Part shown: one piece after another, positions 11,301 through 62,600 of the stretch
Position numbering within the stretch: position 1 is the first letter of the stretch
How the letters are laid out: each line of letters starts with the position of its first letter
Assembly: GCA_040954595.2 (NCBI GenBank)
Contig: CM082590.2
Location: 6,138,001 to 6,202,000, forward strand
Length of the DNA: 64,000 bases
Direction: 5' to 3'
DNA from: Balanoglossus misakiensis
Taxonomy: Eukaryota; Animalia; Hemichordata
Made by a program: the position numbers and the translations under genes
The notes under the pieces: model-generated
What the model was told of the DNA's origin: nothing
Database searches by the model: none
The model's input: the letters and a program-made list of their open reading frames with translations, nothing else

Positions 11301-14300
11301 TGACCTTGACTTTATTGATGAACACAAACCTTTCCTGTGTTTGATATACCACCTGAATGCATTTGAAATAGAAAACGTGTCAAAAAATAAAGCTTGTTTC
11401 CTCCTTTGTTTCTCTTATATCAATTTGAGGTTACAAAGAAAAATTTGAAACCGAAACGAATAAGAACATAGTGTTGGATGAAATGTTCAATTATCTGTAT
11501 ATTGTGACCAGTAACAGTCTGTGGCGCGGTTGTTGACAATTCTAGATGGATGCAAATGTCATAATAAATGAAAGTGTTTACAAAAAAATTAAAACCCCAA
11601 AAGCGACACAACATAGAGATTAAAAATCCCACGTCGTAAGTCAATCTGGAATTCAGGTAAATATGGTCATGAAAAGATTGCCGTTGATTGCCCTTATAAA
11701 CAAAAAGTGCGGATTTCTTTAGTCTGTGGTGTTTGTATTACAAGTGTATTCTTCAGGCGTGATTTGAATCTTTGAGGTGGGGCAGCTGTTGATTGATTGT
11801 AATATTTATTTCCTCTGTCTCTTCGATGGATATCTTAGCTGTAGAAATTACTTGAGTGAATAAACACACATGTGTGGAGATTAACGTGTTATTGTACCTC
11901 AATGGACATAGAACAATGCCAGAGTAAGGACATAGTGCTTGTCTATGGGGAATACAGGGAGAATATCAGAGTCGTGACAAGGCCAGGCTGAAATGTTTCA
12001 TTTACGGACACCCGATGAATATGTGGAATCTGTGTCATTGCAGGCTGAAGAGTTGTCATTTGGACGATATCTTCATTTGTGAAGGAAACTAGTGATTGCA
12101 TGTGCCCCATGCATTATGAGCCATTGTAAGCTTAGGGACCGTCTCAGATTGTCACAAAACTAGCTGGTTAAATCGGATGTAGAATTAGGCGGTGTCTTTA
12201 CTATTGCTGATTCTTGGCTTTTCTGTTCGGAATGGGACCGTCCACCCGAGAACGGCCAAGACAGAGAACAGAACAGTCAAAACGATCACCAACGCCTAGC
12301 TCTAAATCTGATTTTAATCAGATTGGTCACATAAATTCAACAAGTAACGTGCTTATGTTTATTTGAAGGGCGAATTCAATTTGTTTAGTAAACTCCACTT
12401 TCACACTTATTTTCCTTTTGTGTTTTTTGTTAAATTCGGTGAACCAGAACGTTTAGAGTTTAAAATTGAAAAAAAAACATAGGTAATTTCACTTCCATTC
12501 AATGGATACTACAAACGCTTTTTTAAAAAAGACAAATTTGAGAGAAATGTCCAGATTGGTTTAAACAATTCTTTTTCTGATGTTTCCTAGCAACATTAAA
12601 TAATTATAACATTGATGTACCGTACGTACCAACGTTAGGTTCATAGCAGGCTATACCTAAATATTAACTTACATCAACAGAGAAACAGGGGATTGTGTGT
12701 GTCTGGTGTATCACGTCCGCCATGTTTATCTGTTAGAGTACTTGGTGTGATTGAAAATTTGAACATATCAATGTAATTTATGAAATGATATTAAGACCTG
12801 TTGCACCAATGATTGTGCATAAACATGTATAGTGCGCTACATTATATTAGAATTTTATAGTATTACACTTGTTAGAAATATCTACAGGACAGGTTATAAA
12901 TGTTCTCTGAAACAATAGAGTTTTGGTCTGAAACAACTATAGATGCTACACACATTTAACTCATAATATCAGTCAACACTTATAGTTACAAATCAATTCC
13001 AGTGAAATTATAGCCATGTAACCTTACAAGTCCAACATTGGAACATACCTTGTGTTCATTTTAATTCAAATGAATTTGTCAATTTCAGTCTGAATCCACA
13101 GCATTGCATGTTGCAGCCTGGGAAAATAAACTAGAAGCGGCACAAGTGTTGATCGACCATGGAGCTGACGTCAATGCTAAGGAGGTGGTAAGTGGCTTTA
13201 CATGCTCACTCACCAATAGCCCAAACGGCCAAAAAGGTGACACTGTACTTATATTTTGTAGTGTTGACGACATTCGGGATGTCAATCACGAAACTAGTGT
13301 TACTGCAATAAACCGACACACATATATACTAATATTATGCAGAGTATGAAAGAGTTTGAGGTTAGTTTTTGGTCCGTGGCTATGTGGAATTCTTATATAT
13401 GTAACCCAGAGTTTGATTTGGTTATTCACAACACAAGTCAACATTCAAGGTCAACAACAAGAACAGATATCGCACAAATTTTTAGCAGTCAACAGTATTG
13501 CTATTTTATTGCTATGATAACTAGAGAACTATCTAACAGAAATATGGGTCGCTTTACAATGATCGAAACACTGAATAAATGACTTGCATAGAAATCCACT
13601 AGTCCACTGTGTTATCACTGAAATACTAGTAAGTCCAGTGTTCATCAAAACAGAAACCCTACAGTCTATTCAACTTAGCTGTTCCGCTAAACCGTGAACG
13701 GATCTGGCTGTGTCAACATCGTAAATCGGGTCCCTGGCAACCGGCGAGTCCTGGCCTGTGTTGTCACGATCTACGTTGCAGACGAGTATCCCTCCACACA
13801 CGCAACGGGTATTTTCCTATACACACGCACGCATCTAGGGCTTCCCACTCGGGCTTGCAATAGTATACAATCCACAGTTCCGAATTCAACACTCAGCACA
13901 GTTCTGTAGATTTCAAATAAAACTGTTCGAAAGACATCTCATTTTGTAAACAAAGATGATGGGTCATTCACTTAGAAACGTGTACATGCGCATACTACAT
14001 ATGGAACAAGTACACGCAGTCACTGTGCCCAACCACCTTTTTTATACAGTGGTCACGTAACATGCATTTCTAGGGACCTTAGAAAAATCTATTTTTAATA
14101 CATTTTCCGAAACGCGCCTTGATTTCACAGGCGTTTTAAAGTTTCTAAAATGACGCCATGGTTATGACAGAATGTATGCGCCTGCGCAAGTTTCTAGGTG
14201 AATGACCTTTCAAAATGGTTGGGCAAGCAGAGTTTGTCTGGACAGAGAGATAGCGATTTTTTCCGCATTTTTAGGGATCGATTGGGTGAGTTAGGTAAAA

Positions 14301-17300: not shown

Positions 17301-20300
17301 AGTTGATGACTGTGTAGGTAATAGTGAAAATCCCACTGTCACCGCGTTTCATGAGATATAATTTGTTTCCTGATGCGCGCCTGTCACTTGCCTACTCCAA
17401 AGATATTTGTCAAATCCCTGAAACAAACTTTCTGTTTGGCAGCCATAAAGCAAATGCAAACTTGACATTCAGATGTGTATGAGTATACATGTACATACGG
17501 TCATAACTCTGGCTTCGCTGGAGCATTTGCTGCTTTCAGTTCATGCCGAGTGCTGAGTTCTGTGTTGGGTTGTGTCGTATGTTTGTGTGTACCGATGCAT
17601 TAATTACTTAGATGACTTTGGTTGCGCTAAAGGTTCAGAGCGTGCAGATGCAGTTTTCAACACATTACACACTCAGTGCGTTGCATCCGTCATTTGAGCG
17701 TGCAAGAGTCCATCGAGACGGCTGAACGCTGTTCCCTCCACCCCTTGCATGATATTTCTGGACCGCTTCGCTGCATCGCTTTTTGTCTCAAGGCGACCAT
17801 CTTTGCCCGGCGATTTGTCTATGGTATTTCCCCAGACCCTCTTTCTGGAGCGCCCAACGGAAGAAGCAGAGGGCTCTGGGTAACCGAGACTACTTGCCTG
17901 ACAGACCTCGCCACCCGTCGACGTCGCAGCCAGGCACACGAAGTGTGTCACAAGTGGTGTCGCTGTCTCCGATGCTCGATTCTTGTGGCTTCACCGCTCG
18001 TGGCGCACTTCGTGTAGCTATGCCGTCGAATGACAGAGAGAGAGGTCTGGCTCGCGAGACTAAAAAAGGTTGTCTAGCTGAAGTCCACCATAATCATTTG
18101 AATGTCAATAGTGGTTCTGCATATTTCTTACCTTTCATGCATAATTGGCGTTCTTTGATTGGCTAATTCCAATGCTCTTTTAAGGGGTAATGAAACTGCT
18201 GTCTAGGCTTTTATAAAATTTAGATCATTGTCAGTTTGGGGGTATTGTACAGAGGGCATCTTCAAATGAAAACAACACACGCACGTATCATAAATCTTAA
18301 ATAAAGAATACCTGTGGTGATAATGTACCCTCAAAGGACACTGCCCTATCACCACATCATGCATTCATGTTCATTTCTTGGGGGACTGGGGATGTATCCT
18401 ACTATTAATTAATCCCCCCCTCAAAAAAACACAAAAAAACAACAACAACAACAACAACAACAAAGTTTCGGCAAAACATGTTGTGCCATCTCAAAAATGA
18501 ATGTTTCAGAATGTGTGTTACAGTGCATGCTTAATGAAACATTGCGTGTTCCAGTTGAAGGTTATAGTCAGGGATGCTCAGTGACACATTTTTGTTGTAT
18601 TCCCACAGGAAGGTTGGGCACCGTTACACTATGCAGCAGCCAATGGCCATGGTGGCGTGGTGAAACTTCTACTGCAATCCAATGCCAGCGTCGATGTGCA
18701 GGATAATGTAAGTTACTGTAATCACACTAATTCTATTCTACACTCACACATCAGTGGACACGTTTTGTTATCAATAACACACATTTTTGAACATAGGTAA
18801 ATAAAACTATAGTTAACGACTATTCTTCTGCCTTATTCCCAACAACACAGACTTTACAACCTATTTTAAAAATGACAGCCTGTCTCATTAATTATGGATT
18901 GTTACAGCATGATTTAAAAAAAGAAATCAATCAATCATTATGAGCAAGAAGTAATGTTTTTTTATTTAATGAGCAAAGAGTGTTGTTTATTTTGTTGAAT
19001 GTGAGATGAAGATCAGAAAATTTATATTATTGTAAATATAAATGTGTATTGTAATATAGGTAAAATAAATGAGAGACCCTTCTACTGATAAAAGCATGAA
19101 AGAAATCCTCTATTCCAGTTCTGACCAATAAATATATAGCCTGCCACACCGCATTAAAATAAAAAAACTGGTTATAGAACGGAAGCTTTCATCGCGCTGC
19201 GCTTGTGTGCATTGTTTGTTGGAAAAAAATTGCCTACAAATCCCTGAAATTCTATTTTTAGAATTATTTTTTTGAATGCACAAAGCAGCCCACTGTAGCG
19301 TAGACTGGGCATGACAGCAACTGAACATCTAGTAGGTCGAGGCGACTGCAGTGGGGATTGCGCTGGTGTAGGAGGACGTGTATCATCCATTCAGAGCGCT
19401 CGACGCGACGACCACTCAAGCTAGAGAAGCCAGCCTTGCTAAGACTCAAATCTGCGTTAACCAGGCCCTGCATTCCATTGAGCTTGGCACGTCGGTTAGA
19501 TTCCGCTGATAAACCTTATCACACTTTTGTCCGATACCAAGTATTTAGTCAGTCAGCTTGTTGTAGAGACGACTGCAACAGGTGGTACAGGCGCTTGAAT
19601 CGCACCATTGATGACACGAGTATATCGACTAAGCCCTATACATGTATAGTGTGACCTACGCCTAACTGTTTATCTGTTCACAAATGCTCAATATAAACCT
19701 ATAATCTAATTTTCGTGATGTTGGCTTAACAATCATGGACACTTGCCATAACGCGGTCGGTCGATGTCTTGAAAAATCATTCTGTATATTGCATAAAGGC
19801 AAGGAAAATTCAGGGGGATTAAACCTGACAGTTTATTTCTCTGTGTTTGTACGAAGACATGAAATCATCTAGTGTAGGCGTTTCCTGGTACAGTTTGTTT
19901 TTACAGAAAAGGGTGTATTATGCAAATGAAGGGGGAGCTAGTGAAAGACGTAGATTTTTGGAAAGCAAAACATGTTCCACATCTTCCGTTGTACGAAGAA
20001 TGGAATGAAAGTAAGTGCAAATTTCTGAAAATCCAACATTTTCAGAGTTTGGATAAGTAGTTGTGGAAATGCAGCTGTTCTGCCCGAGGATATGCTAATT
20101 CCGCGCATTGCTGGCTGCTGGGAAGCCCTACAAGTTCACCAATAATATCGCAATGTTCCTGTCAGAACTTGGCTTGCCACGTATTGCTGTCACCATGCGT
20201 TATATTAAATATATTAAATTTTATATTAAATACTTTTCCACCACGTGTAGGTAATATTGAAATCACGCCGTATCCGCGTTCCATGAGAAATAATCTGTTT

Positions 20301-23300
20301 CCTGATGTTTGCCTGTCACTTGCCTCCTCCGACGTTATTTGTCAAAATCCCGAAACGACTTTTCTGCATGGCGGCCGTGTATGAGTCTACATGTACATGC
20401 GGTCATAACTCTGGCTTTGCTGGAGCATTTGCCTATTTCAGTTCATGCCGAGTGCTGAGTTCTGTGTTGGGTTGTGGCGTCTGTTTCTGTGCGTACATGA
20501 ATGTGTGTTCCTAGCCCTGCGTACAGGTCTGTGAGTTCCCGGCGGTAGGCGACCGGTGGAGGCCGTGTAACGCCGGGAACGCAAGCGAACAATGGGGAAG
20601 TGGTCGACTTCTATTGGACGTAACGCTAACGCTTTTTACTACTGTATAATTAAACTAGTGTTAAAATAGTTGCCATGGCCACCCTTTAACGTTAACAGAT
20701 ATTTAGTGGCTCTCTATCGGAATTTGTCTATTACACATAAACACCCATCTGAGCCACTCGATATGAAAATTTTGGTTACGCCGCCCTCACTATAAGCGGC
20801 AGTCCTACTGACAATATGATGCTCGTGCTCGTACTATCACTATCGTAATGCCGTCTTATGTCAGTCTCAGCCCCACGAGAACTTAAAGTTGAACATAAGA
20901 AAACCATGAAAATTGTCCCGACTGTCACATTCCAATACTCAAGTAAATTCCAACCAGAGGCGTGGTTTGCATACAGTAGATTTGTGAAGATTCCTCCGTT
21001 CATAAAACGTGATGAAACAGTTTTCACATGTATAGAAATGATTTAACACAAGGCTTTTCCTTGTAGAAATAGCTACCGTGTGTTCCATCTGTTTGTTTTG
21101 TGTATAAGAATATCATTTTCAGTGCAGACGGATCTGACCAGTACAGTCGGTGGGTTAAAGCAGTGGTACTCTTGAAGTCTATCTAATATTTCACTTTGTT
21201 TAATAACCTCTTATTATGTTTGAATTGACACCAAATATCAGTTCGGATTATCTCAAAATAGAGAGATTTGAGTGTGCACACAGTGCCACTCGCGCACGCG
21301 TAATAGTTATCAGTGGTTGCATGGCGATCGCAGTCATGTTATATCTGTACATGCATCGCTGTAAACTTACAGTGGACAGTGATTGTTTGTTTGTTGTTGT
21401 TGATGAAATGATGATGATGATGATGATGATATTTTAAAAACACAATGAAGCATTCCTTGCTGTTGTTTGTCGATGTTGTAAATAACTTTTAAAGAAGATC
21501 GCCCAACGTTGTATGGTCGCCCAGCGTCACTCCTGAGTACAATAAAGAGAAGGGCTGAATCGAGATGCCCGGCTCCAGGCTACATCCTTCAAGGTCCTGT
21601 AAAAACACCCCATCAACGACCGATCGATTGAAATATGCCACCATAGGCACTGAAATATTTTCGTAAAGGTGATACTGAGATATTCGACTTTGACATTAGA
21701 AATGGCCACACCAAAAGAAACTTTCGTTCGGGAAGGCTAAAATCCTAAGATTTATCTTACGGTCCAATATTCTTATCGACAGATTAAGCCGCAGGACACT
21801 TTTCCCCATAGTGGTAAAATATCCGGCATTTACACATAAGGCGAATTTATGTAGCAACATTCTCAACAATCCATCGGAAACAATATTGCTTCTCTGATGT
21901 AAAGGTTGTTGTACACATGAACCATTAATCATAACAATTGTCATGGTGACCCATTGAAAAGTTTATCACTAGTGATATGAAAGGTCTTGTAATAATAAAT
22001 AACAAAATCAACAGTTTTCTATTTAATGTGCACTATTACGTAAATCTTCAAATAAAGCCCGAAAGAGTACCGGATTGCTTATTATGATTCATAAGAATGC
22101 CACATTCATTAACTAGTACTGCAGTGTTGATGTCTGATATGTCTTTGTATTTTACAGAATGGTGACACAGCTATACACCTGGCATCAGAGTGGGGTCGGG
22201 AAGGAGCAGCACTGTTATTACTGAAAGCCAAATGCTCTGTCAACATACAAAACAAGGTAAGTTAGAACCAACCTCAGTGCACAAGGTGATGTTAGCGTTA
22301 TAGATTGAGTTTTTTTGTGGCTTTACTTTGGGGACAAGTTTTCGTTTAAAGGTATTGTGTGTGTTAGTATGTGCGGGTGTTGTCTGTGTGTGTCGCAGAA
22401 ACGTTTGATGATTAGAAAAAACAATTTATTGGGGTCGGATCGTATGTTCAATTTGCATCCTTCCCACCTGCACCCGTTGAAGTTATTTTGAAAAATATGC
22501 CTAAAATTTCTGATAACAAAACGATGTGTTTTGATTTTGACGATATTGACGAGGAAGTAATTTGAGAATCGCGTAAGTTTAGGGTGAAGCAGCAGCTCTT
22601 CATTGTTGTGATGAGTTTGCATCGACGTACTTTCTGTAAATGGTGAGGTAGATCCCTGGCGCGGTTTACACAGTGAAGCGTAAGGCTACCCGTCACGTTT
22701 GCTTTATTCTCCTGTCTATACAGAAGCTGGCCGAGAATTTCTGGGGAGAGTGGAAACATTACTAATTTCGTTTGGTGATTTCCTGTCATTTAGTGGAAAC
22801 TGTGACCACAGTGGAACTGTCTGGGTAGTTTGGTCCTTAGCTGTAGTGTTAAGCTCAACTCCCTTTTCTCTCTTCTGACGAGGGATTTGATATGTTGAGG
22901 ATTTTGCCCGAAATTTGCGTGAAATATGGCGGTCCGGGGCGACTTTTTAATTTGCATTGTGGACATACTGACTCTTCCTGTTTAAGTTTCGCACGTAGGC
23001 AAGAATGTCGTCTCTTTCTGGAAATATTCACGTACATTCGCGAAATTCCAACGTTTATCACCCCGTTTTCCGTTGATGTTGTCGGGTACAACAGGTGGAT
23101 GGTCATTGGCCGTGAAAGTACATAAGATTATTCTGACTCCCCAACATACTGGCTGACTTTGTGAAAATGATTTTTGTTTTGTATCTATTCAATAGCGTTG
23201 AAGTTGGAGACAATATAGCTTTAAACATCCAAACCACGTGTACAGTATATACCAGCAGGGTTTTGTCATTTTATTACTGTGTTTTTTTTCATAAATGGGT

Positions 23301-26300
23301 AATTCGGTAACTTTTGACACTTTAGAAGTAATTTGTGATATGCTCCAAATATTTGTCGGTCGGGCCTATTTAATATTTTTCTATTGACCTTATCACGGTG
23401 TCAGAGTTAAATTGGATAACATTGATTCTTGTTTTGTTTTCATTCAATGGCGGTGAAGTTGTAGACAACATAGCTTTAAACATCCAAACCACGTGTACAC
23501 CAGTGGGGAATGGTCATTTTATTACCGTGGTTTGTTTTCATCGGTAAGATCGGTGGCTTTTGACAAGAGAAATTTGTAAAATGTTTGTCGATGGGGCATA
23601 TTTAATATTATTCCATTAATGTAATAAAAATGACGGTGTATAGACTTAAATTTGAAAACATTTAATTTCTTGAACCGGAAACTTAAAGCAAATTTCGACG
23701 TCTTGAGAACAGGAACCTTTACATGATTAATTTATTAAGCTGTTGAATCGGTGAGCAATGGTTGGAAAGTGTTATTCTAGGATTGCCTCCTTATGCAAAC
23801 TTTGTTAAAATTTCACAATGACTGACAATACTGCATGGTCACACCAAAATGGTGTCAATAGACTCAAAGCCTGTCGCTGGGTTAATTTTACGGCACAATA
23901 ACTGATGAACCGCACTTGCTTCTTTCCCGTCATGTTTCCTTCTCAGTAAAAAAATCAAAATACGTTTAGAATGTGGAATATAAAAACTGCATCGAGTGTG
24001 TTGGATGAAATTTATCGCGGATTCTGTTGGACATTGTCTCACTGTTATTGTTTTTATCAGCATCTATGTCACTTCGACGTTAGTACGCTGACATTGTTTC
24101 AGAGTCATCAAAATCCTATTCCAGGGACAACACCATCCATGTTAAAGCTGACACCTCCCTAACACGTGAACGAAACGAAATTCCTTCCTACTTTGATACG
24201 ACACAGATGTTAAACACAATATTGCTAATGTGACTTCCCTAATGGTGAAGGACCCACTGCAGCTTAAGATTGGGCTCTCCAATCACAGAATCACGGGTCC
24301 AAACCTTTCCACAGCAGTTGTGTTCGTGTTCTTGAGCAAGGAGATATCCTTCTAGTTGCTTCTCCCAACACAGGAGTAAAAGGGAAGGACTGCAGAGATT
24401 ATGATTAGTGGTGTGTTTGGCTCGATAACGTTAATTGTGGCTGCCAAGTAGGTATGCTGACATTGTTGCTTTATAGTCAAGTGATATTAGATCTGGAAAA
24501 AAACACTCGCCATATATATCTCCACAGAGTCCTATCATGTCAGGGCATACTTATGTATAAAACGAAAACCTTTGCGATTTTGAGCGCCACATTGTCGTCA
24601 AATATTTTATTGCTACAAGGGTATTGCTAGAATAAAAACGATAAATATCCACGCAGATCACTCAAAAATGTTCAAATGCACTTGTATCAACTTCGGGTTC
24701 TTTCATTCTGCTGGAAATTTCGAACTTGTCAGATTAAAAAAACTTATATTTGTTGTAGTTGTCGAAGACAGTTTGCTGTAATAAGTATCGAGGTCCAACT
24801 TGTACATTTTGGACACGACAACTGTTTCAAGATTTTAGAGTACCGGTACTAGTAAATATTGCACAATAACAGAATATCATGAATTCTGCACATGACATAT
24901 GATACAGACCTTAGTGATGTTTAGGAAGGATGCGATTTATTCTACAGCTGTAGTTTTCAAGTGTAAAGCGATCGTGAAATTTAGTCGAACATTTTGCTTC
25001 ACGGGTCATGAATGTCTGACAAGTTGTTCAATGACAGAGGGAATAGTTTACAATGTACCGAACTGAACTCACTATATGCAACATTTACTGCACATGGTGA
25101 CCGTTTTTAAGCCTAGCCAGTTTAAAAGTTTCTCATTCATATATGGATCACAATCGACTTGTTTTAGGTATTCACTATTCTTGAATGCCAGATCACAGGC
25201 AAAGTCCTTCTGTCACAGGGCATATGTACATTCATTTACGCCGCCTACGATCGATGATTGTCAAATTATGTTTCTTCCGATCCTGGTTGCTTATAGTGCA
25301 TCTTCCTTTTGCCGTTGGTGGCGGCATTGAAGGATAACAGACTATCCGCCAGCCGACAGTGAGACTTTACGTAAACTGAAACTGAGGAAAGCACCGGATC
25401 ACAGGGAATGTGTTTGCATTGCATCAACGATGAGGCGCAAATTTGAGTTTCTTCTGATTATGGCTACTTAGTACAACACCCTTAATCGTTGGCAGCGCTA
25501 TTTGAGGATAAAATGTTATCTGTAGCCTCTAGACATGTAGACTGAAAGCGAGGAAAGCATCAGATTGGACAGGGACATTGTTACCGATCGATAAGAAATA
25601 TTTTTTTATATTTCAGATAAAAGTAACGGAATTATCATTGAGTTGCCATCATTTCTTAAACACTTTGTCTAGAAGTTTGCTTTCAGGCCCATGTGACCAC
25701 TGGAAGCTGACCGTGGATATCTGTAAATTTATTATTAGTTTCATTTAAAGAAGGTCATTTCCACCACTCTGCCAATAACACTTATGTTCCATGTGTTCCA
25801 TATTATTAAAGAATTGTGCATTCAGGTTCTAGTCTTCATTTACCTAATCACATCGAAAATATCATCCAACCACATTTTCCAGGACCCGCAACAAATCCCG
25901 ATCTAAATATCAGCTACTGGAAAGCCCAATACATTAACACAGATTCTGCATGTGGCCATTAAAACATTGCGTCTTCATTTTGACAGAATGGTGACACTCC
26001 TTTACACAGTGCAGCAAGCAGGGATCATGTGAATACAGTGAGGTTACTGTTGGAATACAAGGCTGATGTCAACATACAAAATAAGGCAAGTAGTACTTTT
26101 GTAATCTTTATTTATCATTTGAATCAGTATGCGCTTGCGAGGTTTGTAACTTGTCCCAAGTTTGTAAGCAAAGTTTGATACACATTTTGAGCAATTGCTT
26201 GAGAGCAATTGTATGAAGCTTTAATCAGTAATTAAGGTATGCCTCAGAACAGATACAAAGACATGAATACAGATTCTGTATGTGGCCATTAAAACATTGT

Positions 26301-29300
26301 GTCTTCATATTTGGCAGGAAGGCGACACGCCTATACATGTTGCAGTAAGGAATGACGATGTGAATATAGTGAGGTTACTGTTGGAATACAAGGCTGATGT
26401 CAACATACAAAATAAGGCAAGTAGTATTTTTGTAATCTTTATTTATCATTTGAATCAGTATGCGCTTGCGAGGTTTGTAACTTGTCCCAAGTTTGTAAGC
26501 AAAGTTTGATACACATTTTGAACAATTGCTTGAGAGCAATTGTATGAAGCTTTAATCAGTAATTAAGGTACGCCTCAGAACAGACACAAAGACATGAACA
26601 CAGATTCTGCATGTGGCCATTAAAACATTGTGTTTTCATTTTCACAGAGTGGCGACACTCCTTTACACAGTGCAGCAAGCAAAGATCGTGTGAATATAGT
26701 GAAGTTACTGTTGGAATACAAGGCTGATGTCAACATACAAAACGAGGCAAGTAGATGTGGATATTTGTAGATTTATTATTAGTTTGAATATTAAATGAAG
26801 GCCATTTCCACCACTCTGCCAATAACACTTATGTTCCATGTGTTCCATATTATTAAAGAATCGTGCATTCAGGTTCTAGTCCCTTATCACATCGAAAATA
26901 TCATCCAACAATTTTTTTTAGGACCCGCAACAAATCCCGATCTAAATATCAGCTACTGAAAAGCCCAATACATTAACACAGATTCTGCATGTGGCCATTA
27001 AAACATTGCGTCTTCATATTGACAGGAGGGCGACACTCCTTTGCACAATGCAGCAAGCAGGGATCATGTGAATACAGTGAGGTTACTGTTGGAATACAAG
27101 GCTGATGTCAACATACAAAACAAGGCAAGTAGTATTTCTGTAATCTTTTCACGATACTGCGCTGTTGGTTGTGACTTTGGTGTATTTACTGTCCGTTTGC
27201 AGTAAAATATCGTCCAGTTGAACAGGTGTTAAGCCTGTGTATCGCTTTGAAGCCATATAGATGCGGGAGTTGACTGATCGTGAAGGAAGCCATTGAACGA
27301 CAGTTTGTTAAGCGCAGAAGTTGCGCGCAGAACACCAAAACAACCCAGCGGGCGATATCAGCGCACGCGACAGGGCTTTATCAACTCTAGCCATGTTATA
27401 TCACTTTTTTTTCTATATCACGTGAGCGCGTCTCAGCCAATCACGAATACGGTATAATACGTGAGGTGTAATAATCACTGTTAAATGTCTTCTTATATTT
27501 TAGTATGGCAACACCCCTTTGGATGTATCAGTAGAAAGGTTAAAGGTATGTATTTATTTAGTCAAGATATGGCGGTGGTAGTGTATCCTTGATCAAAACA
27601 CTTGGTCAAAGACAAAACACCACCGCATATTCTTGCAATTGCTTCTTAACACTCGTTGAATAAATGGAATAAATGGTGCTTGTTAGGACACACATTTTAA
27701 TGTCAGAGTTCAAGCAATTTTACAGCCCGGGAACTTGAATGGAATTAAGGGACTGTTCAGTATTTACGGCTGGTGGCGGCAAGTTTGTGTCATCGGTTTT
27801 CAAAATCAGGCAGACCCCCCCCCCTTCACCCAGGAACAAAATGATGACCCCCACCCCTGAAAACATTACACAACTACTCGTGGAGGACAAAAAGCTTGCC
27901 TCCAACAGCCTTCTCACTGTCCTGATCTTATGAACACTGTATGCAATAAAGGCAAAGAGGTTCCCCACATCTCAATTATAAATTTCTAAGTATAGTGTTG
28001 CAATTGTCATGTCATGTTGTTTTGTTCCGGTCTGTGCTGACTGTTGTACAGTGGAAATGTGTGTTCTTTTTCAACTCTTGTCGCTATGGTTTCCTTTCAC
28101 AAAAATACACCAGAAAACAAACACTAAACACAATTGACATAGATCCATTACAGAATGGATCACACAAAACTTCAACAAAAGTAGAAAAACACACACATTT
28201 CCACTGTACAAGGGGAGTAGGAAGCAATTTCATGGTTAGGCAAATGAAACCAACATTCTGGTGTTGAATAGCTTACAATGGAGTTTACCATATATGAATA
28301 AATCAAAAACCTATGAACATTACAACATTACAACAGTTGGTAGAATTGATAAACTAAGAGAAGAGAAGGGAGAGGGTGTGGGAGGGGGTTTCCCCCTCCC
28401 ACAATAGAAATGTTTGTAAAATACGGTGCTCAAAGTTACATTTACTTAATGTTGGGGAGGACAAATTTTACTTTTGCCGCTCAAAGTTAGCATCTGTGCG
28501 TGTGTGTAGTGGGGGGAGGTGATGACAAGTACTCTGTCCTGGTACACTAAAACAACCAGCCAATAGATGAAATGTGGCGAGGAATGAAGGGGATGGGTGT
28601 GGGAGGTGGTGTCCCCCTGCCAAATCAGAAAATTTTGTAAAATAAAGGGCTTGAAACTGTATTTTTGTGGACTCAAAAGCAAAAGTTGGGGGGGGGGCAA
28701 AAGTATGTGACCCCCTGCCAAATCAGAAAATTTGTAAAATAAAGGGCTTGAAACTGTATTTTTGTGGACTCAAAAGCAAAAGTTGGGGGGGGGGGGGCAA
28801 AAGTATGTGACCCCCTTAAATGTTTCAGAAAAAGATGACCCCCTTTTGGATTTCAAAATTAAAGTGACCCCCCTTGTTTTGCCGCCCTGACCATAAAAAG
28901 TGAACTGTCCCTAAATAAGCTCAAAAAAAACCTACTTTGGATAAAATGCTGCTTACAGACTACTGCAGGTTCTATTCAAAACAAACGCAGGATTAGACAT
29001 GTGATGATTGATTCATTTATAACTGTGTTGTTGTTGTTTTTCTATTTGGAGCTTTATTTTACGATTTCACATTTAAAAAGTTGCTTAAAATTATCGCTTT
29101 TCTCAATACGATTCAACTGCGCATGCGCAGTGATTCGAGTTTCCGGAAAATCGATCATAGTCATAGTTTCACACAAAGACAATCATGAGATAGCATTCCA
29201 GACTCTTCACCGCTATTAAGATATGATCAATCGAATAAGAGGATCCAGAGTAATGTTTACTTCCTTATTTGTTATCAAAGTCTAAAACCTTCTAATTATC

Positions 29301-42203: not shown

Positions 42204-43389
42204 GGTTTCAGTTGAATTCCATTTATGGGAGGCAGGTGTGGAAAGCAATAAACCTTGCAAAGCGGCGTTGTTATCAAAGTTGTTTGCTCTGTCATTCAGC
42301 GAGTTTTCTGACCGTGTATGCAGGTCGGTGTCCAGTGGCGTTGACGGCGTGTCATTCAGAATTCTATGTTGAGTGTATTCAGTTCAAGACTAAAGTCAGC
42401 TAATGTTACAATTATGAGTTTGTTTGTGGAAGTTGGAAATGATGCCACATATATTCTTGAATTTATTCGAGATTTTAAAAAGAAGATGTAGTGCTCGAAA
42501 GGGGCCATTGTTGCGACAATATTTTGCCAAACAGCTGTATGACCTGTAGCTCACGATAATTCTTGACTTTATGTTTATCTTGTTGAAAAATGTTTGTATG
42601 TTTCTTGATTGTGGTGGAGTGTTTTTCTGCCGACTAAACAAACACCCTGTGCTATATATTAAGTGTGTTGAGTGGTTTCCGCCAAAGTCTATACGCATAA
42701 AGCCAATAGTTTAAACAGTATTTAATCGTAAAGAGATGCCCCCCTTACGCTAATACATTCCAACACATATATGCACAAAAGAATGGACAATTTGCATTAC
42801 AAAATAGCTGGTAAAATTCATACTTGCATTTTATAGACAAGAAAAAAACTTTAGACTTAAACTTTATGTGCTGATAGTTTACAGCAAGGGTATTTTGTGT
42901 GTGTAAAGGTAAACACTAGTTGCAATAAATGACGTCGAGTGGTTTCAGGTGAATTCCATTTGTGCAAGGCAGTGGAGGACAGCAATAAACCATGCAAAGT
43001 GACGCTGTTATCAATGCGGTTCCTTTAAAGTTGTCTGCTCTGTCATACAGCGACTATTCTGACCGTGTATGCAGGTCGACGTTCAGTGGCTTTGACGGCG
43101 TGTCATTCAGAACTCGGCGGTAAGTGTAATAAGACTAAAGTTAGCTAATTAGCCAATTATTAGTTTGCATGTAGGAATTAATGTTTTGAAATGATGCAAC
43201 GAGTCTTGAATTCAATTGACATTATAAAAAGATGATGTTGGCTGGCAAAAGTAAATTCTCAGTTAATATCCTGAACATCTAAAACAGTATTGCAATGAAT
43301 GATCATTGTAATTTGTGGACGTATTTGCTTCACATTGCAGTTCACATTGCATTGCGACACTTTGTGTTTACTTTGCAAAGTGGTTAGAC

Positions 43390-53593: not shown

Positions 53594-53623
53594 ATGGCTT
53601 CTGGAGACGCTAAGAATCCACGG
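53594..53623 (+). CDS. Copy 2 exon 1 ([10 protein letters not shown])
   Basis: ACCATGG start context; CGG|GTAAGT donor; homologous to 5345-5374. Confidence 0.75.
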
Positions 53624-56600
53624 GTAAGTGAACTCTTAACTGTAGCAACTGACATTTCACATTTCTGGCAGTGACGCGTACGACGGCTGTTTTTATGAGT
53701 GGTTTACATTGTGTTTGTTTTGTGGACTGAGGACTGTTGTTCAAAATTTCTCCCTTCAACCCCATGCACGTAAATTTAACCAGACATTTTGGTCACAAAA
53801 CAAACGACTGTTTCGTTAAGACTTGTGACGCTAGTCGGTGCCTAATAGGTTTATTTTTTTTCAACGGGTCAGCTTGCCCTACACACGGAAAATATAGAAA
53901 CTTCTAGTGTCTGTGTGTATTGCTAGATAGTGCATTCATAAATAAACAATTACCCAGTTGACAAAAAAGTCACACTAATCACAATGTTTTCCATTCACAA
54001 GTCCAAGTCTCCATTGAACGATATTTTTTCAAAAAATTATTTTACCGGTTGAGCAAGTCCTAAGTAATCACTATTTTTACGAGCAAGTTCTAGCTTTAGA
54101 TAAAACACCCATTGAAATCCATGTCTGTGTTAGGCCTACTTTGTAACCATGTCTAGCAATGTGTCTATATATGGGGCAGTCAGATTGACGCCATATCAAA
54201 TGATGATAACCTTTGACCCGAAATGAGTTCATTCAAGGTGACGCAGGCATGGTGTTGGTCATAAGGGGTCGTGGATAATTATTAATTCCCCATGAGCTGA
54301 CTCAATCTTCTCCGTATCCTTTGCTGACAGACGACACGACAGTTTGATGATACATGTGTGCATACCCACGAGTAAGCTTTTTAAATAACCTAATCGAACT
54401 GACCATTCTGAAGGAAGAATTGCATCACGTATATGTTAGCGTCGTATACATGTTGGTCCAAACCCTGGGAAAATAATATGCCGTAGTGTTTGTACTTTCC
54501 GGGTTTCTGCTAGTTTCCGTTGACTTTTCATTGTGATGACGTCATGTTTACTTCGCTTTGGTTTTGATACATTCAGTTTGAAAAAGTGTTGACTGAGTAA
54601 TTTATTCACGATATTTCGCGATAAAATCACTTACAAAATTGTATCTCCTTGTCTGTAATAACATGGACGTTTGCACGAACGCATCGCGCAAATGTCAATA
54701 TTATAAAATGTATAATAATGACTAATTAACTTGGGACTACATTGTACACACCAACGACAACCAAGAAGGAAACATTTAAGTGATTCTTACGGATTTGTTT
54801 CAACGGTCGACATACTTCCTTCATGATTGTCTGGCATGCAGTGGCTACCGATGCTGACCGTTGATGACTCTGTATTCAGCTCAACAGGTCAAAAACCCTT
54901 TCTGTGTTACACATATTGCATCGCGTAAATGTCGATATTATAAAATGTATAATAATGAAGTAATATTTCAATGCGATGTCGCAGTTCTTTGTCAAAATAT
55001 ATTATTTTAGCTATCACTTTGTCAGTCTTTGCGAATTAGGTTTTTCAGAATCAAGGATCTGAAGAACTTTGATATATTTAATGGAATACACAGAAACATT
55101 AACAATTGCATATTTCATTGAATATTATAGGATCTGATTGATGCTGCTGGGGATGGTGATGTTGCAAGGATTCAATCGTTGATAGATGATGGGTACGATG
55201 TCAATGCAAAGGGTAAATACCTTGAAAAGAGTAGAGGCTTCACCTGGGTAAGAATTCACCCTCACACTTTTACAACGTCATGTCGCAGTAGTAACTAATA
55301 TGATATAGAACAAACGAATTGTCCTTGAGTTTCACTGATGGACTAAAAACCTTTCATATGCTAGTTAAATTCAATTCAGAAGATTTCCAGTCTTTTAAGT
55401 TTATATTTCATGTCTGTACTCACTAACACACACAAAAAATATTTCCATGTTGTTTTTCTTAAAGTAATTAAAAATACACATTGTAATCAAGACATAACAT
55501 AAGCTATTTGATATTTTAAAGAGAGGGGTAACCAAGGTGGGAAGTCGTTTTCCCAAAATCAATTATTTCTCCTCGCCTCGATTCGACGAATTTCAACGAT
55601 CCCGTAGACCATTCATGCATAGCTCCTTCAAAAGCATCCAATCTTCCGAATATTTCGAGATCAACTTGAGGAAATGTCAAGCGAAGGTCAACTCTGTTGC
55701 CGACCGAGAGTGTAGCCTGCTTTGGTCACAATCCCTCATGTAAGCAACAACTAGTATTTATCTGGCTTTATTTTGCTGCACCAGTAAAGAAAACTAAATA
55801 TTTTTCCAAAGCTAAATTGTCATGTGACTTTTAAAAATTAATATCTCTTGAAAATAGGGCTAACATACTTAGGTTACTAACACTTGTTGTGCAAGGACAA
55901 CACAAAATATGTTGGAGAAAAAACAATTTGAACGAAGTGAAATTGATGATTACTCCCACTTTAGTACTTTAATTGGTTTTGAAATGTCAATATTTGAGAA
56001 GATTTTGCCGATTCAGTTGCAACTTTGATATTTTCTTTCTCAAAACATATTTTTTTAATTGCGAATAAGATCAAAACCTTAAATTTGGAGAAAAGTCGTC
56101 AATTATGACAGATAGTCATAAAAACAATTAACTTAGGATCCAATACATAAAATATATAATTTGCATAAGTCTAAAACGAGATATTTTCACATATTCAATG
56201 ATTGTACTCTTTCTTAATTTAATTTACTCGTCCAGTGACCCCAAACATTTAGAGTTTAAGATTGTATAAAATGTAGTAAGTGATTCCGGTTCCATTCAAT
56301 GGATACAAACATTGTTGCAGTGATGTCCCATGCCAATATTGGGTTCATAGCGGGCCAGACTTCAACTTACATCAACAGAGAAACACGAGGGATTGTATGT
56401 GTCGGGTGTATCACGTCCGCCATGTTTATCTGTTAGAGTAATTGGTGAGATTGAAAATTTCAAGATGTCCCATGCCAATGTTGGGTTCATAGCGGGCCAG
56501 ACTTCAACTTACATCAACAGAGAAACACGAGGGATTGTATGTGTCGGGTGTATCACGTCCGCCATGTTTATCTGTTAGAGTAATTGGTGTGATTGAAAAT

Positions 56601-59600
56601 TTCAAGATGTCCCATGCCAATATTGGGTTCATAGCGGGCCAGACTTCAACTTACATCAACAGAGAAACACGAGGGATTGTATGTGTCGGGTGTATCACGT
56701 CCGCCATGTTTATCTGTTAGAGTACTTGGTGAGATTGAAAATTTCAAGATGTCCCATGCCAATGTTGGGTTCATAGCGGGCCAGACTTCAACTTACATCA
56801 ACAGAGAAACAGGGGATTGTGTGTGTCGGGTGTATCACGTCCGCCATGTTTATCTGTTAGAGTACTTGGTGTGATTGAAAATTTCAACATATTCATGTAA
56901 TTTACGAAACGATATTAAGACCTGTGGGTCCGATGAGTGTGCATAAACATGTATAGTGCGCTACATTATATCAGAATTTTATAATGTTACACTTGTTAGA
57001 AATATATATAGGACACATTATAAATGTTCTCTGAAACAATAGTGTTTTGGTCTGAAACAACTATAGATGCTACACACATTTAACTCAACACAGTGAACAC
57101 TTACAGTTAAAAATCAATTCCATTGAAATTATAGCCATGTCACCTTACAAGTCCAACATTGGAACAAAGCTTGTGTTCATTTTAATTCAAATGAATTTGT
57201 CAATTTCAGTATGACTCCACAGCATTGCATGTGGCAGCCCGGTACAATAAACTGGAAGCGGCACAAGTGTTGATCGACCATGGAGCTGACGTCAATGCTA
57301 AGGATAGGGTAAGTGGCTTTACATGCTCACTCACCAATAGCCCGAATGGCCAAAAAGGTGACACTGTACTTATATTTTGTAGTGTTGACGACCTTCGGGA
57401 TGTCAATCACGAAACCAGTGTTACTGCAATAAACTGACACACATAATAGGATTATGAAGAGTATGAAAGAGTTTGAGGGAGAGTTTTTGGACCGTGGCTA
57501 TACCTGCGGCCAAGTTAAATTCTTATCTCTTTTCAGACCAACCAATTCACTTTTGAGTATCATACCACTATAAAGCAATATTTTATTAAAACGTCGAGTA
57601 ATTGGAGAGGTTGGGATCAGAGTGTTCATATCGAAATTCATAATTAGATTTTTAGATAAATAATCTACCAATAATTAACTTTCTGACCGGAAAGTTAGGG
57701 ACCTAACCATGAACTATTGCTACATGCACGATAACACATTTATTTTATATTTAAAAAAACTGTAGTGTAATAGCTGTCAGTAACAACGGTGAAGCGAAAT
57801 AAAGCTCCGAAAATAAATAATTGTAAATTGTAGGGGTGCCATGTATCCTGCACAACAGGCCGGGGGGGGGGGGGGGTTCTCCCATAGGAAGGTGTACGGG
57901 TATGTGCCACCCAGAAGGGTCACTTTTCCAACGGAAAAATCCCAACACTCGGGATGACTTTTCAACCGAAAATCTACAAAGTGGGATTCTTTCATAAACC
58001 GTCATCACCTCGCTTTCAGTCGAAGTCGCGGCCAGGCACACGAAGGGCGCCACAAGCGGCGACGCTATCTCCGATGCTCGATTTTTGTGGCTTCACCGCT
58101 GGTGGCGCACTTCGTGTGGCTATGCCATCGAATGACAGAGAGAGAGGTCTGGCTGGCGAGACTAAAAAAAGTTGTCTGGCTGAAGTCCAACATAAACATT
58201 TGAACGTCAATAGTGGTTCCGCATATTTCTTACCTTTCATTCATAATTGGCGTTCTTTGATTGGCTAATTCCAATGCTCTATTAAGGGGTAATGAAACTG
58301 CTGTCTAGGCTTTTATAAAATTTAGATCATTGACAGTTTGAGGTATTGTACAGAGGGCATCTTCAAATGAAAACAACACACGCGCGTATCATAAATCTCA
58401 AGTAAAAGAATATCTGTGATGTTAATGTACCCTCAAAGGACAGAGCCATATCACCACATCATGCATTCATGTCCATTACGTGGGGGACTGGGATGTATCC
58501 TGCTATTAATTGATCCGCCCCCCCCCCCAAAAAAGTGTCGGCAACACATGTTGTGCCATCTCAAAATGAATGTTTCAGAATGTGTGTTACAGTGCATGCT
58601 TAATGAAACATTGCGTGTTCCAGTTGAAGGTTATAGTCAGGGATTTTCAGTGACACCTTTTTGTTGTATTCCCACAGATTGGTCAGGCACCGTTACACCT
58701 TGCAGCATTGAATGGTCATGGTGACGTGGTGAAACTTCTACTGCAATCCAATGCCTGCATCGATGTGAAGGATAATGTAAGTTAATGTAATTCTATTCTA
58801 CACTCATACATCAGTGGACACGTTTTATTACCAATAACACACATTTTTGAACATAGGCTAATAAAAATAAATAGTTAACATCTATCCCTCTGCCACGTTC
58901 CCAACGACCCAGACTTTACAACCTATTTAATGATGACAGCCTGTCTTGTATAATTATGCAGTGTTTACACAAGATTAAAAAAAAGAAATCAATCAGTCAG
59001 AGCAGGAAGTGTTGTTTGTTTTTGTTGAATGTGAGATCAAGATCAGCAGATTTATATTATTGTAAATATAAATGTCTATTGTTTAATTAAAGATTGTTTA
59101 AACATTTAATATTATAATTTATATAAGGCATGTGTATAATCTCATGAAAAAGCAATAGTAGAAAAGAGTATTTTAGCAAATCTCAAAGATTTCCTGGGAA
59201 GGAACAGATGCGTATAAATGTGCGCACTTTACAAGTTTATGTTCTACGTGTGATACAGGCAAGTTGTTTTCTTTTCAAAATCAAAACGGTGGCACCCCTT
59301 CCGGGCACAAAACTAACTACTCGATCGGGCACTTCTGACACCCTACTCCGAGAGAACCCCCCCCCCCCACCCCCCCCCCCCCCCAGACAGAGAAAAATCA
59401 AATCTCGAACAAAACTATCGACAAATCAAGGAAAACGCGGAATTCCAGTGTCTGACCGGAACAGGATATGGCGACACTGAACATAGAGAAAACCAAAATG
59501 CTGGAAAAACTCGAACGCGTGGAGCGAATGATCACAACGCAACCGTGACCAGATCTCCGGATACGGAGAAAACATCCGCTCATTACTCCATGCCCGATTT

Positions 59601-62600
59601 AATAAACATGGCCTCAGACGAGAAGGGCGTCTATCACCTATTTCGCACAGGCAACCTATGGTCACAGTGCCACCAGGCGGTCGTGATTGTGCAACACATT
59701 TGACAAAGGCTGGTACACGTCACAACTAAGTCTTGTAAAAGCGTTCGTACAAAATCTGCAAATATAAATGCGTCAACCCACAAACCTTCACCATTCAGTT
59801 CTGCTTTCTTGCTAAACCTGCTCTTCAATATTAATAAAACTATGTTTACCAGACTTGAACTGCATTTCACCAATTAAGAAGATAACCAAAAAAGCATAAG
59901 AAAAAATTAAGGAGCTTTGAGATGTTATGGCAAGGTTGAGACGGAAAAGGGTATATATATATTTTACAAACCATTCCAGAGAAAGTGTCACATATTCCAA
60001 TCCTAACATAGAGAGAATCCCACTTAATCTTTGCAATGCAATTCAGTTAATGAGGGTTTCACCCAAGACACCTTTCATTGGCCTAGAATTTTTGCCATGA
60101 TTTATGGTTCAGATAAAGTCCGCCCTCACCTCGCACTCAAGCTCGCTGAGCTGGCTCTCATGATTTCTCCCCGTTGATTTGTCTGAAGATACCATGATGG
60201 AACACTTTAGAACAACGGAGAAAACATTCTAGACTTCCTATGCTTTTAAAAATTAATGTACGACTTGTATCGATAGATAAAGGCAAGCTTATGAAATGCC
60301 CTTATAGATACACACAACATTTTGTATCAGGTTGTCATGATCAAGACAGAATCAGGAAAAGGTCAACTCCCCCCTGAAATATCAAAGACTTAATTAATTT
60401 AAACTCAGGCGACCTTTACTTCTTAAAATAATTTCGCTCACTCTCATTTTCGGGATATTGTGTTTCAGACTTATTGGTTTTTCGTTGCCTATAGTCGCGA
60501 AGACGGACACAAATTAGCACCTATGGCATTGTCAATCCAAACATGACCCTACATGTGCAATGCCCGTACAATACCCGTCACTCAGGTTTTAACCAAACTC
60601 TTTGAAATAATCACGGCGATTAAATTGTTACCCTGAAACTTTGCCAAATTCAGTTTGACCGCACTAGTTGTACGTTGATCATAATCCTAAAGATAGAAAA
60701 CAAATAAGACTTGATGAAAACTGCATTACTTCACTTCCAAGTGACTGACGCTATAAAAGTAAAATTGGCTGTTGCAGGGCGCCACTAGCGGTGAAGTCAG
60801 GTAGAATGGACGTCTGAGTATTATATGTAGTCGCTGAAGTAGATCCCCGGCGCGCTTTACACAGTGAAGTGTGAGGCTATCCATTACATTTGTTGTATTC
60901 TCTCGTATATTAACAGTCGTCGGCCATGCGTTTCCGAAGAGAGTTGAAACATAGTTTCGTTTGGTGATTTATTGTCATTTAGTGGAATCGGTGACCACCG
61001 TACACCCATTTTGCCTGAAATTTGCTTAAAATATGGCGGTTTTTAATTGTGGACACAACTGACTGTTCCTGTTTAAGTTTCGCCCGTAGGCAAGAATTTT
61101 GTGTCATTCCTGAATTTTTCGCGTACATCCGCGAAATTCCAACGTTTATCACCCAGTTTTCGGTTGATATTATCGGGTACTTCAGGTGGATGGTTATCTG
61201 CCGTGAGAGTTCATAAGATTATTCTGGCTCCCCAACATGCTGGCTGACTTTGTGAAAATGATTCTTGTTTTGTTTTCATTCAATGGCGGTGAAGTTGTAG
61301 ACAACATAGTTTTAGACATCCAAACCACGTGTACTGTTTTGGCCAGTGGGGAATGATCCTTTTATTACAGCTTTAACAAACATAAACCAGACTGTGACAA
61401 GAAGCAACATGGCATTACGTTGGTCGCTCTCGTGGCCATGTTATTTGCCAGTGCATTCATGCACAGACAATATTTTGCGAGCTTTGGCAAGCGCTAGACT
61501 TGTTTATAACGAACAGTGCTTATAATTCATAAGCACTGTTTGTTTTTGTGCCTTCTATTATAACATTAAAGGGACAAAGTCTCTCTCTCTCTGCCTTTTT
61601 TTTCCATTAATTATATTTGATAAGAGACAATGTTTGTTCTTCTACATGTGGATATATAGTGAATAAACGTTCAACCACACACAACTTCCATCCCTTTTAT
61701 AGACAGGAGAGTGAAAAAACTCGCCAAAATGAATAATCGTTCTTTACCATTTATTCATATTGGGCGAGTTTTTACTCTCATATCCTACAAACGGGGTGGA
61801 AGTTGTGTGTTGTTGAATGTTGATTCACCATATATCCACATGTAGAATAACATAAACGGCGTCTTGTATCAAACATAATTAATGGAAAAAGGCCAGCGAG
61901 AGAGAGACTTTGTCCCTTTAAAGGTAATCTCTTGCATACTGACCAACTTTAAGCTGTCCAGATAAACATTTCAGTAGGTCTGACAGACAAACAAGAAAAA
62001 CCAAACGATAAACACTGTTATATGGCTTCTTATATTTTAGGATGGCGAAACCCCTTTGGATTTAGCAGTAAAATTGTTAAAGGTATGTATCTATCAAGTC
62101 CAGACATGGTGGTAGTGTTATATCCTTGATCAAAACACTTGGTCAAAGACAGAACATCACCGCAAATCCTTGTAATTGCTTGTAAACGCACATTTAGTAA
62201 ATAATGCTTGGCAGGACAGACGTTCTAATGTCGGAGTCAAGCTTCTTCACAGCCCCGGAACTTGAATGGAATCAAAAAAGCTCAAAAACCTACTCTGGAT
62301 AAAATGCTGCTCACACACTACTGCAGGTTTCTATTCAATACACACGCAGGATAAGTCATGTGATTATAACTACGTTTTTTTCTATTTGGAGTTTTATCTT
62401 ACAAATTCACATTTTAAAAATCGCTTAAAATGTGCAGTTGTTCGAGTTTCCGGACAATCGATCGTACTCATAGTTTCACACAAAGCAAATCATGAGATAG
62501 CATTCCAGACTCTTCACCGCTATTAAGACATGATCAATCGAATAAGAGGATCAAGAGCAATGTTTACTTCCTTATGGTTATCAAACACAACATTGTCATA

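What the first reader, a model, noticed from the sequence alone, without database searches (positions are those of the whole stretch)
13089..62082. Paralog differences fall on the ankyrin ligand-binding positions while adjacent introns stay nearly identical
Manual counts. Exon 3: 10 nt differences, 2 synonymous; aa changes SE>YD, WE>RY and EV>DR only. Exon 4: 15 differences, 1 synonymous; multi-base codon swaps E>I, W>Q, Y>L, A>L. C-cap exon: YGNTPLDVSVER > [12 protein letters not shown] with no synonymous change. The ~128 nt of intron before exon 4 differs at only ~4 sites. The changed residues map mainly to the beta-turn and helix-1 positions (repeat positions 2, 3, 5, 10, 13, 14, 33) that form the ankyrin binding surface, most of which are randomised in DARPin libraries. 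Inference: diversifying selection on binding specificity.
Basis: partly seen in the sequence, partly recalled or inferred. Interest (0 to 1): 0.88.

Follow-up and report, generated by a model that had tools for sequence, protein, structure and literature searches.

The report
Fast-evolving ankyrin sensors on Roco GTPases
Two neighbouring copies of an ankyrin-plus-GTPase (Roco) gene, likely from an acorn worm, differ about five times more at the codons for the predicted binding face than in their introns, and differ in repeat number, which points to selection for new binding targets and makes them likely variable immune sensors.

Summary
At six published ankyrin binding-face positions, 13 of 17 codons change residue against 7 of 63 elsewhere. 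One correction: the introns are not nearly identical. They differ at 170 of 1841 sites (9.2%), and the quoted 128 nt is among the best-conserved stretches. Even so, intron-calibrated dN/dS is 9-13 at binding codons and about 0.5 elsewhere. Relaxed constraint, CpG decay and an old converted patch do not explain it. Each ankyrin repeat is one phase-0 exon; gene A has seven internal repeats, gene B two. This parallels brown-algal ROCO genes (LRR exons) and fungal NLR ankyrins. My ten paper searches listed no animal ankyrin-Roco case. Limits: one gene pair, no expression data, no start exon, ligand unknown. The four tandem exons look mosaic rather than simply selected. Selection about 0.85; immune-sensor role about 0.55.

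The parts
11120..11218 (+). Gene A exon 2: N-cap-like ankyrin repeat and following loop, 99 nt, phase 0
   Evidence: AG/GT ends, open frame; homologous to 55131-55247
13089..13187 (+). Gene A ankyrin exon ('exon 3'), one 33-residue repeat
   Evidence: Pfam Ank E 2.4e-8; AG/GT, phase 0
18609..18707 (+). Gene A ankyrin exon ('exon 4')
   Evidence: Pfam Ank E 4.2e-10
22158..22256 (+). Gene A ankyrin exon 5, no counterpart in gene B
   Evidence: Pfam Ank E 1.3e-6; HMM scan finds no further ankyrin exon in B
25987..27124 (+). Gene A four tandem ankyrin exons (25987-26085, 26318-26416, 26648-26746, 27026-27124), 82-93 of 99 nt identical, all with GC donor sites; absent from gene B
27504..27545 (+). 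Gene A cap exon (turn and helix 1 of last repeat), 42 nt
29881..29955 (+).
   Evidence: AG/GT, open, phase 0; resembles by eye the matching stretch of P0002/P0003
30281..33487 (+). Gene A large exon: LRR, Roc GTPase, COR, C-terminal extension; no kinase; 1068 residues to the stop
   Evidence: Pfam Roc 1.5e-15, COR-A 1.9e-16, LRR; Foldseek best LRRK1 and Chlorobium Roco; GTPase motifs
55131..55247 (+). Gene B exon 2, 117 nt: same N-cap repeat, loop six residues longer
57210..57308 (+). Gene B ankyrin exon 3
   Evidence: Pfam Ank E 3.4e-10
58678..58776 (+). Gene B ankyrin exon 4
   Evidence: Pfam Ank E 8.9e-10
62041..62082 (+). Gene B cap exon
63577..63651 (+). Gene B 75-nt exon; intron homology to gene A runs on to the window end, about 170 nt short of where the Roc-COR exon would start

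Best explanation
The window holds two tandem copies of a kinase-less ankyrin-LRR-Roc-COR (Roco) gene with one ankyrin repeat per exon, whose predicted binding-face codons have diverged about five times faster than their introns, likely under diversifying selection because the ankyrin array would act as a variable cytoplasmic sensor of foreign or altered proteins that switches the Roc-COR GTPase. Shown: gene structure and domain content of gene A; phase-0 single-repeat exons; seven vs two internal repeats; excess replacement changes at positions 2, 3, 5, 10, 13, 14; a framework held below the neutral rate. Inferred: these positions form one exposed surface here as in other ankyrins; whole-exon gain and loss by unequal crossing-over changes array length without breaking frame; ligand binding alters the GTP or dimer state of Roc-COR; the driver is an arms race with microbes or parasites. 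Gene B's Roc-COR exon lies beyond the window and is inferred from intron homology. The selection step alone I put at about 0.85, the immune role at about 0.55.
For: Binding codons: 17 of 21 change residue across four exons vs 8 of 88 others (p 1.4e-10). Neutral simulation at 9.2% gives a mean of 4.3 and reaches 17 in 0 of 200,000 runs; at 17.6% P 5.5e-5; at 25% P 0.003. Codon model omega 9-13 (binding) vs 0.46-0.55 (other) with introns. 8 of 19 binding codons differ at 2-3 bases vs 17 of 612 intron triplets (p 2e-8). The 21 framework codons interleaved with them carry 2 differences vs 22 in 15 binding codons. Only 3 of 33 differences are CpG-type. All 11 exons found for A and 5 for B are phase 0 with no internal stop. 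Roc motifs G1-G4 present. In the four tandem exons 5 of 6 binding positions vary vs 5 of 27 others (p 0.005). Precedent: the same regime in brown-algal ROCO LRR exons and fungal NLR ankyrins. One Saccoglossus relative, P0022, is annotated with two death effector domains. Exon 3 and 4 bins carry 13-25 times the contig depth of the single-copy-like bins (weak hint of many copies).
Against: One pairwise comparison; no site-by-site test on many copies was possible. Whole-exon dN vs dS is not significant alone (p 0.065), and framework constraint vs introns is borderline (6 of 137 sites, p 0.06). From exons alone omega for other codons is 0.8-1.4, poorly determined. The 75-nt exon, not expected to be binding face, has 7 of 25 residues changed and no synonymous-only codon, so constraint is loose there. 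In the tandem exons synonymous differences (2-5.5 of about 21 sites) exceed those of the adjacent introns (15 of 266, 9 of 231), and exon 6b differs at 13-14 of its first 45 nt but 1-3 of the last 54: a mosaic, for which omega above 1 is not shown. No start-codon exon was found. Two searches limited to about 8,000 candidates each gave only 5 close hemichordate proteins over three species, so a large family is not general in the group. Gene A has no known effector domain, and P0022 may be a fused gene model.
Confidence: 0.58

Rival explanations
1. Selection on the binding face is real but not immune: the copies diverged to bind different host partners (for example Rab-type GTPases, as the LRRK2 ankyrin region does) or act in self/non-self or gamete recognition.
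For: The LRRK2 ankyrin domain is reported to bind Rab29 (PMC6337361 passage). Nothing tested here ties the gene to infection. Fungal repeat receptors with this regime include allorecognition genes (PMC4986451 passages).
Against: Replacement of 17 of 21 binding residues while neutral sites drift 9%, with repeat number changing from 2 to 7, is more than one-off partner partitioning usually needs (inference).
Confidence: 0.24
2. Gene conversion or exon exchange among many copies homogenised introns and framework while binding codons came in as short patches from older copies, so the omega values overstate selection.
For: Exon 6b is a clear mosaic, with 4 synonymous differences from 6a in its first 13 codons. 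Contig depth suggests many donor copies. Multi-base codon swaps are common (8 of 19).
Against: In A vs B, the 21 framework codons between positions 3 and 14 show no synonymous difference, so no continuous old patch exists. Patches limited to single binding codons would themselves need selection to be kept.
Confidence: 0.12
3. Relaxed constraint or decay: surface positions of ankyrins are always tolerant, one or both copies are drifting, or B is an uncollapsed allele of A.
For: The 75-nt exon evolves near neutrally; no expression evidence; an earlier scan note on another genome found contact-site variation only at the neutral rate (not checked).
Against: Relaxation cannot exceed the neutral rate, yet binding codons differ at 28 of 63 nt vs 9.2%, and no 57-column intron window has more than 13 differences. 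Frames and splice sites are intact in both genes. An allele would not remove the excess, only turn it into balancing selection.
Confidence: 0.06

Closest known systems
Brown-algal ROCO genes (Ectocarpus; Zambounis et al., PMC3341825; Teng et al., PMC11378527)
   Same: Kinase-less Roco architecture with an N-terminal repeat array, one repeat per exon, tandem paralogs differing in repeat content, selected sites on the concave face, proposed immune receptors.
   Different: The variable repeat there is a 72-nt LRR exon; here it is a 99-nt ankyrin exon and the LRRs sit inside the large Roc-COR exon. Inverted or inactive spare exons were not found here. Different kingdom; Roc-COR orthology not tested.
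Fungal NLRs with conserved ankyrin repeats (Podospora Pa_3_8560; Dyrka et al., PMC4986451; authorship recalled)
   Same: [quoted passage not shown]
   Different: Those use a NACHT domain with C-terminal repeats and an N-terminal effector; here the switch is Roc-COR, the repeats are N-terminal and each is its own exon.
LRRK1/LRRK2 and MFHAS1
   Same: ANK-LRR-Roc-COR order as in LRRK1/2; LRR-Roc-COR without kinase as in MFHAS1. Foldseek best match LRRK1, E 1.8e-26.
   Different: No kinase or WD40 domain; 14-18% identity to the LRRK structures; MFHAS1 lacks ankyrins; these are single vertebrate genes, not tandem variable arrays (own knowledge).
Hemichordate Roco proteins P0001, P0003 (Ptychodera flava), P0002 (Glandiceps talaboti), P0004, P0022 (Saccoglossus kowalevskii)
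   Same: 44-55% identity over 88-100% of the searched region for P0001-P0004; ankyrin count also varies among them (Pfam Ank stretches 1, 0, 1, 7 for P0001, P0003, P0002, P0004).
   Different: Uncharacterised automatic annotations; the 'serine/threonine kinase roco5/roco11' names are not backed by a kinase domain.
DARPin libraries
   Same: N-cap, internal repeats, C-cap layout; the positions randomised in PMC3308923 are those that vary here; exon 4 aligns without gaps to DARPin repeats.
   Different: Engineered, not a natural family; an analogy only.

Membership tests
Roco proteins | Roc GTPase domain directly followed by COR | tested here: met
   Pfam Roc 255-376 and COR-A 512-655, both above cut-off; Foldseek matches to RocCOR structures. 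Gene A only; gene B's exon is outside the window.
Roco proteins | Intact GTP-binding motifs | tested here: met
   P-loop at residue 260, switch threonine near 283, DxAG at 304, G4-type motif at 372 of the large exon; invariant or nearly so.
Roco proteins | GTP binding, hydrolysis and nucleotide-dependent dimerisation | not testable with these tools
   Needs biochemistry.
LRRK1/LRRK2 | Kinase and WD40 domains after COR | tested here: not met
   No kinase or WD40 Pfam hit; the frame stops at 33487.
Brown-algal-type shuffling ROCO receptors | One repeat per symmetrical exon | tested here: met
   Nine 99-nt phase-0 ankyrin exons.
Brown-algal-type shuffling ROCO receptors | The variable repeat is an LRR | tested here: not met
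   Variable repeats are ankyrins; LRRs lie in the large exon. Works like, but is not, a member.
Brown-algal-type shuffling ROCO receptors | Positive selection on the concave face | tested here: met
   by position in the repeat; no 3D model of the spliced array was made.
Brown-algal-type shuffling ROCO receptors | Spare inverted or inactivated repeat exons in introns | tested here: not met
   Six-frame HMM scan of the window finds nine full exons, all on +, and nothing else below E 0.1.
Brown-algal-type shuffling ROCO receptors | Alternative splicing of repeat exons | not testable with these tools
   No RNA holder listed. Four GC donors are a hint only.
Brown-algal-type shuffling ROCO receptors | Large, clustered gene family | tested here: inconclusive
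   Two tandem copies in the window; contig depth and 20-22 contigs at exon sites hint at more, but the tool says depth is no copy number, and the cap bin is only about 3 times background.
Fungal ankyrin NLRs | NACHT or NB-ARC domain | tested here: not met
   None.
Fungal ankyrin NLRs | Highly similar internal repeats with repeat-number variation | tested here: met
   Four tandem exons 82-93% identical in DNA; seven vs two internal repeats between paralogs. Variation between individuals not tested.

The most novel reading that the evidence does not exclude
An acorn worm carries a family of tens of ankyrin-Roco genes that works as a natural DARPin-like library: single-repeat exons are gained, lost, converted and alternatively spliced (GC donors), their binding faces are driven apart by selection, and they signal through a Roc-COR GTPase. 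That would be a diversified intracellular immune receptor system in a deuterostome, convergent with brown-algal ROCOs but built on ankyrins.
Probability: 0.3. Interest if true: 0.85.

Novelty: new variant of a known kind. Interest (0 to 1): 0.64.

Why it matters
Diversified receptor families show how animals without antibodies recognise many targets. Roco GTPases with exon-per-repeat, positively selected sensors have been described in brown algae, and selected ankyrin arrays in fungal NLRs. Finding the two traits joined in a deuterostome would extend the pattern to animals, give a testable sensor role for kinase-less Roco proteins (relatives of LRRK2 and MFHAS1), and show evolution varying the very positions that protein engineers randomise in DARPin libraries.

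Tried and rejected
No whole genome is held for the window, so other paralogs could not be aligned. No RNA holder listed: no evidence either way on expression. A per-site table of variants among copies at exon 4 was not obtained, so family-wide variability at the binding codons stays open; one search shows only 40 rows (497 hidden), 4 of them in exons 3 and 4, all matching gene A's letter. Start-codon exon: the ATG at 8715 runs into a stop before the donor-like site at 8829 and has no counterpart near gene B; blastn and tblastx of the two upstream regions gave only repeats and the exon 2 flank. CpG hypermutation rejected (3 of 33). A continuous old patch rejected for A vs B but accepted for exon 6b. 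Two fits (exon-only with exon 2; three classes) looked unconverged and were replaced by multi-start fits; the omega near 1 for the 75-nt exon comes from one of them and is backed only by raw counts. The fourth changed 'binding' codon of exon 2 borders the loop indel, so its register is uncertain; three of three helix positions stand without it. ESM Atlas on residues 660-1068 gave only hits below 0.9, COR-like. The model's last 200 residues have pLDDT under 50, so no effector fold can be named. No structure of the spliced ankyrin array was predicted. Ten paper searches listed no report of positively selected ankyrin-Roco genes in an animal; most hits were seen only as listings and abstract openings, and the library lacks most subscription papers. 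Papers read further: PMC4986451 (passages, section 17), PMC3341825 (outline, first part of Results, passages), PMC11378527, PMC8229355, PMC9334734, PMC12314368, PMC6337361 (passages), PMC3308923 (passages, section 5). No supplements were opened; gene tables in the supplement of PMC11378527 may list animal ANK-Roco architectures.
Full report
What the window is. The DNA is eukaryotic and intron-rich (about 39% GC). A self-comparison shows two same-strand copies of one gene about 44 kb apart. Gene A runs from at least 11120 to 33487: an N-cap-like exon, seven 99-nt ankyrin exons, a 42-nt cap exon, a 75-nt exon and a 3207-nt final exon. All are phase 0 with no internal stop, 1371 codons without a start exon. 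The final exon encodes LRR, Roc and COR domains and no kinase. Its model (mean pLDDT 69.9) matches LRRK1 and the Chlorobium LRR-Roc-COR structure best. Its four best protein matches of 20 are from acorn worms at 44-55% identity, so the source is likely an enteropneust hemichordate (inference). Gene B (55131 to the window end) has the N-cap exon, two ankyrin exons, the cap exon and the 75-nt exon. Its intron homology with A continues to base 64000, about 170 nt before the Roc-COR exon would begin.

Checking the observation. The three exon pairs differ at 10, 15 and 8 bases with 2, 1 and 0 synonymous codons, as stated. Exon residue 1 is repeat position 3 in the numbering of PMC3308923 (Table 2), which randomises positions 2, 3, 5, 10, 13 and 14 as one outward-facing surface; exon 4 aligns to DARPin repeats without gaps. 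With that set, 13 of 17 codons change residue against 7 of 63 others (p 3.9e-7).

Is it selection? Variation at these positions is expected in any ankyrin, so the test is whether it exceeds the neutral rate. Binding-codon replacement sites differ at 51%, synonymous sites at 7%, introns at 9% and other replacement sites at 4.4%. A pairwise codon model written for this gives omega 9-13 for binding codons and about 0.5 for the rest with intron calibration, rejecting omega = 1 with 2dlnL 55-62. From exons alone it gives 18-38 with 2dlnL 32-38, and 7.6 with only the most diverged flank. Simulation at 9.2%, 17.6% and 25% neutral divergence reaches the observed 17 of 21 changes in 0, 11 and 584 of 200,000 runs. 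An old converted patch would carry synonymous changes between the binding codons: the 21 interleaved framework codons have two differences, both replacements, against 22 in the 15 binding codons. CpG decay accounts for 3 of 33 differences.

Results against. The test has one pair. Whole-exon dN vs dS is not significant (p 0.065) and framework constraint is borderline (p 0.06). The 75-nt exon changes 7 of 25 residues through 9 bases, near its flank rate (19 of 179, 10 of 135), so that part looks unconstrained. The four tandem exons of A vary at 5 of 6 binding positions against 5 of 27 others (p 0.005), but their synonymous divergence exceeds that of their introns, and exon 6b has an old 5' half on a homogenised 3' half. 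There, conversion is evident and omega above 1 is not shown.

Family size. Three public runs of one sample hold part of the locus. Laid on gene B, run X1 gives contig depth 5169 and 6157 in the exon 3 and 4 bins, 1682 at exon 2 and 885 at the cap exon, against 244-391 in single-copy-like bins; 22 and 20 contigs carry a variant at exon sites. The tool warns that this is no copy number, and cap copies near 80% identity may fail to be laid. At the position-14 codon of exon 3 about 70% of the depth in X1 reads gene A's bases, so the copies are not uniform there. The sample differs from the window at single-copy-like places, so it is probably another haplotype or individual. This is a hint of many copies, not a count. 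In other acorn worms two limited searches found five close proteins in three species.

How it likely works. Each repeat is a frame-neutral exon, so unequal crossing-over can add or remove repeats (seven vs two, shown) and conversion can swap half-repeats (6b, shown). The four tandem exons all use GC donors, which might allow skipping (untested). Selection fixes new residues on the turn and inner helix (shown statistically). By analogy with other Roco proteins, binding at the array would change the GTP and dimer state of Roc-COR (inferred; passages of PMC6337361). The output is unknown: the last 200 residues model poorly, and one Saccoglossus relative is annotated with death effector domains but may be a fused model. 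An arms race with microbes is the commonest cause of this signature (own knowledge), so I favour an immune sensor at about 0.55-0.6, with host-partner or allorecognition divergence at 0.24.

Comparison and novelty. Brown-algal ROCO genes have one LRR per exon, shuffling and selection on the concave face. Podospora NLR ankyrins show repeat-number polymorphism and selection on inner helices and hairpin loop. The present genes are true Roco members, not LRRKs, not NLRs and not brown-algal-type by repeat class. ANK-ROCO architecture as such is known, for example from Gonium and LRRK1/2. Ten paper searches listed no animal ankyrin-Roco under diversifying selection, within a library lacking most subscription journals. 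Earlier scan notes held nothing on this genome or sequence and one look-alike elsewhere where the rate was only neutral. Verdict: a real and strong signal, a new variant of a known kind, interest 0.64.

Noticed in passing
window 26086, 26417, 26747, 27125: All four tandem ankyrin exons end in GC donor sites (GCAAGT), while every other exon uses GT; possible regulated skipping.
   Followed up: partly
window 11120-11218 vs 55131-55247: The loop after the N-cap repeat is longer than a standard ankyrin turn and differs by six residues and in sequence between the paralogs, recalling loop-extended DARPins (recalled).
   Followed up: partly
window 14840-15185 and 61561-61925: A palindromic element of about 350 nt, MITE-like, in both genes at non-matching places; contig depth over a million.
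   Followed up: no
window 16026-16128 and 17039-17141: 103-nt inverted repeats at 97% identity bounding about 1.1 kb in intron 3 of gene A: likely a non-autonomous DNA transposon. A similar pair at 41630-41698 and 42134-42203.
   Followed up: no
window 3953-4824 and 56322-56887: Tandem arrays with units of 136 nt (6.4 copies, GC-rich) and 142 nt (4 copies, expanded from the intron upstream of exon 3 in gene B).
   Followed up: no
window 39333-52131: Nested non-coding duplications between the two genes (43392-47204 vs 48149-52131 at 89-94%), with no long ORF beyond one of 120 codons; signs of repeated unequal crossing-over in the cluster.
   Followed up: no
window 32870-33487 (residues 863-1068 of the large exon): C-terminal extension conserved in hemichordate and unnamed ENA relatives, with conserved Cys/His motifs and a long Ala/Gly-rich helix pair; no Pfam family, low model confidence; a candidate effector region.
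   Followed up: partly
P0002 and P0022: Relatives carry different N-terminal additions: a Rho-like GTPase in Glandiceps, two DED domains, fn3 and coiled coil in Saccoglossus; real fusions or merged gene models.
   Followed up: no
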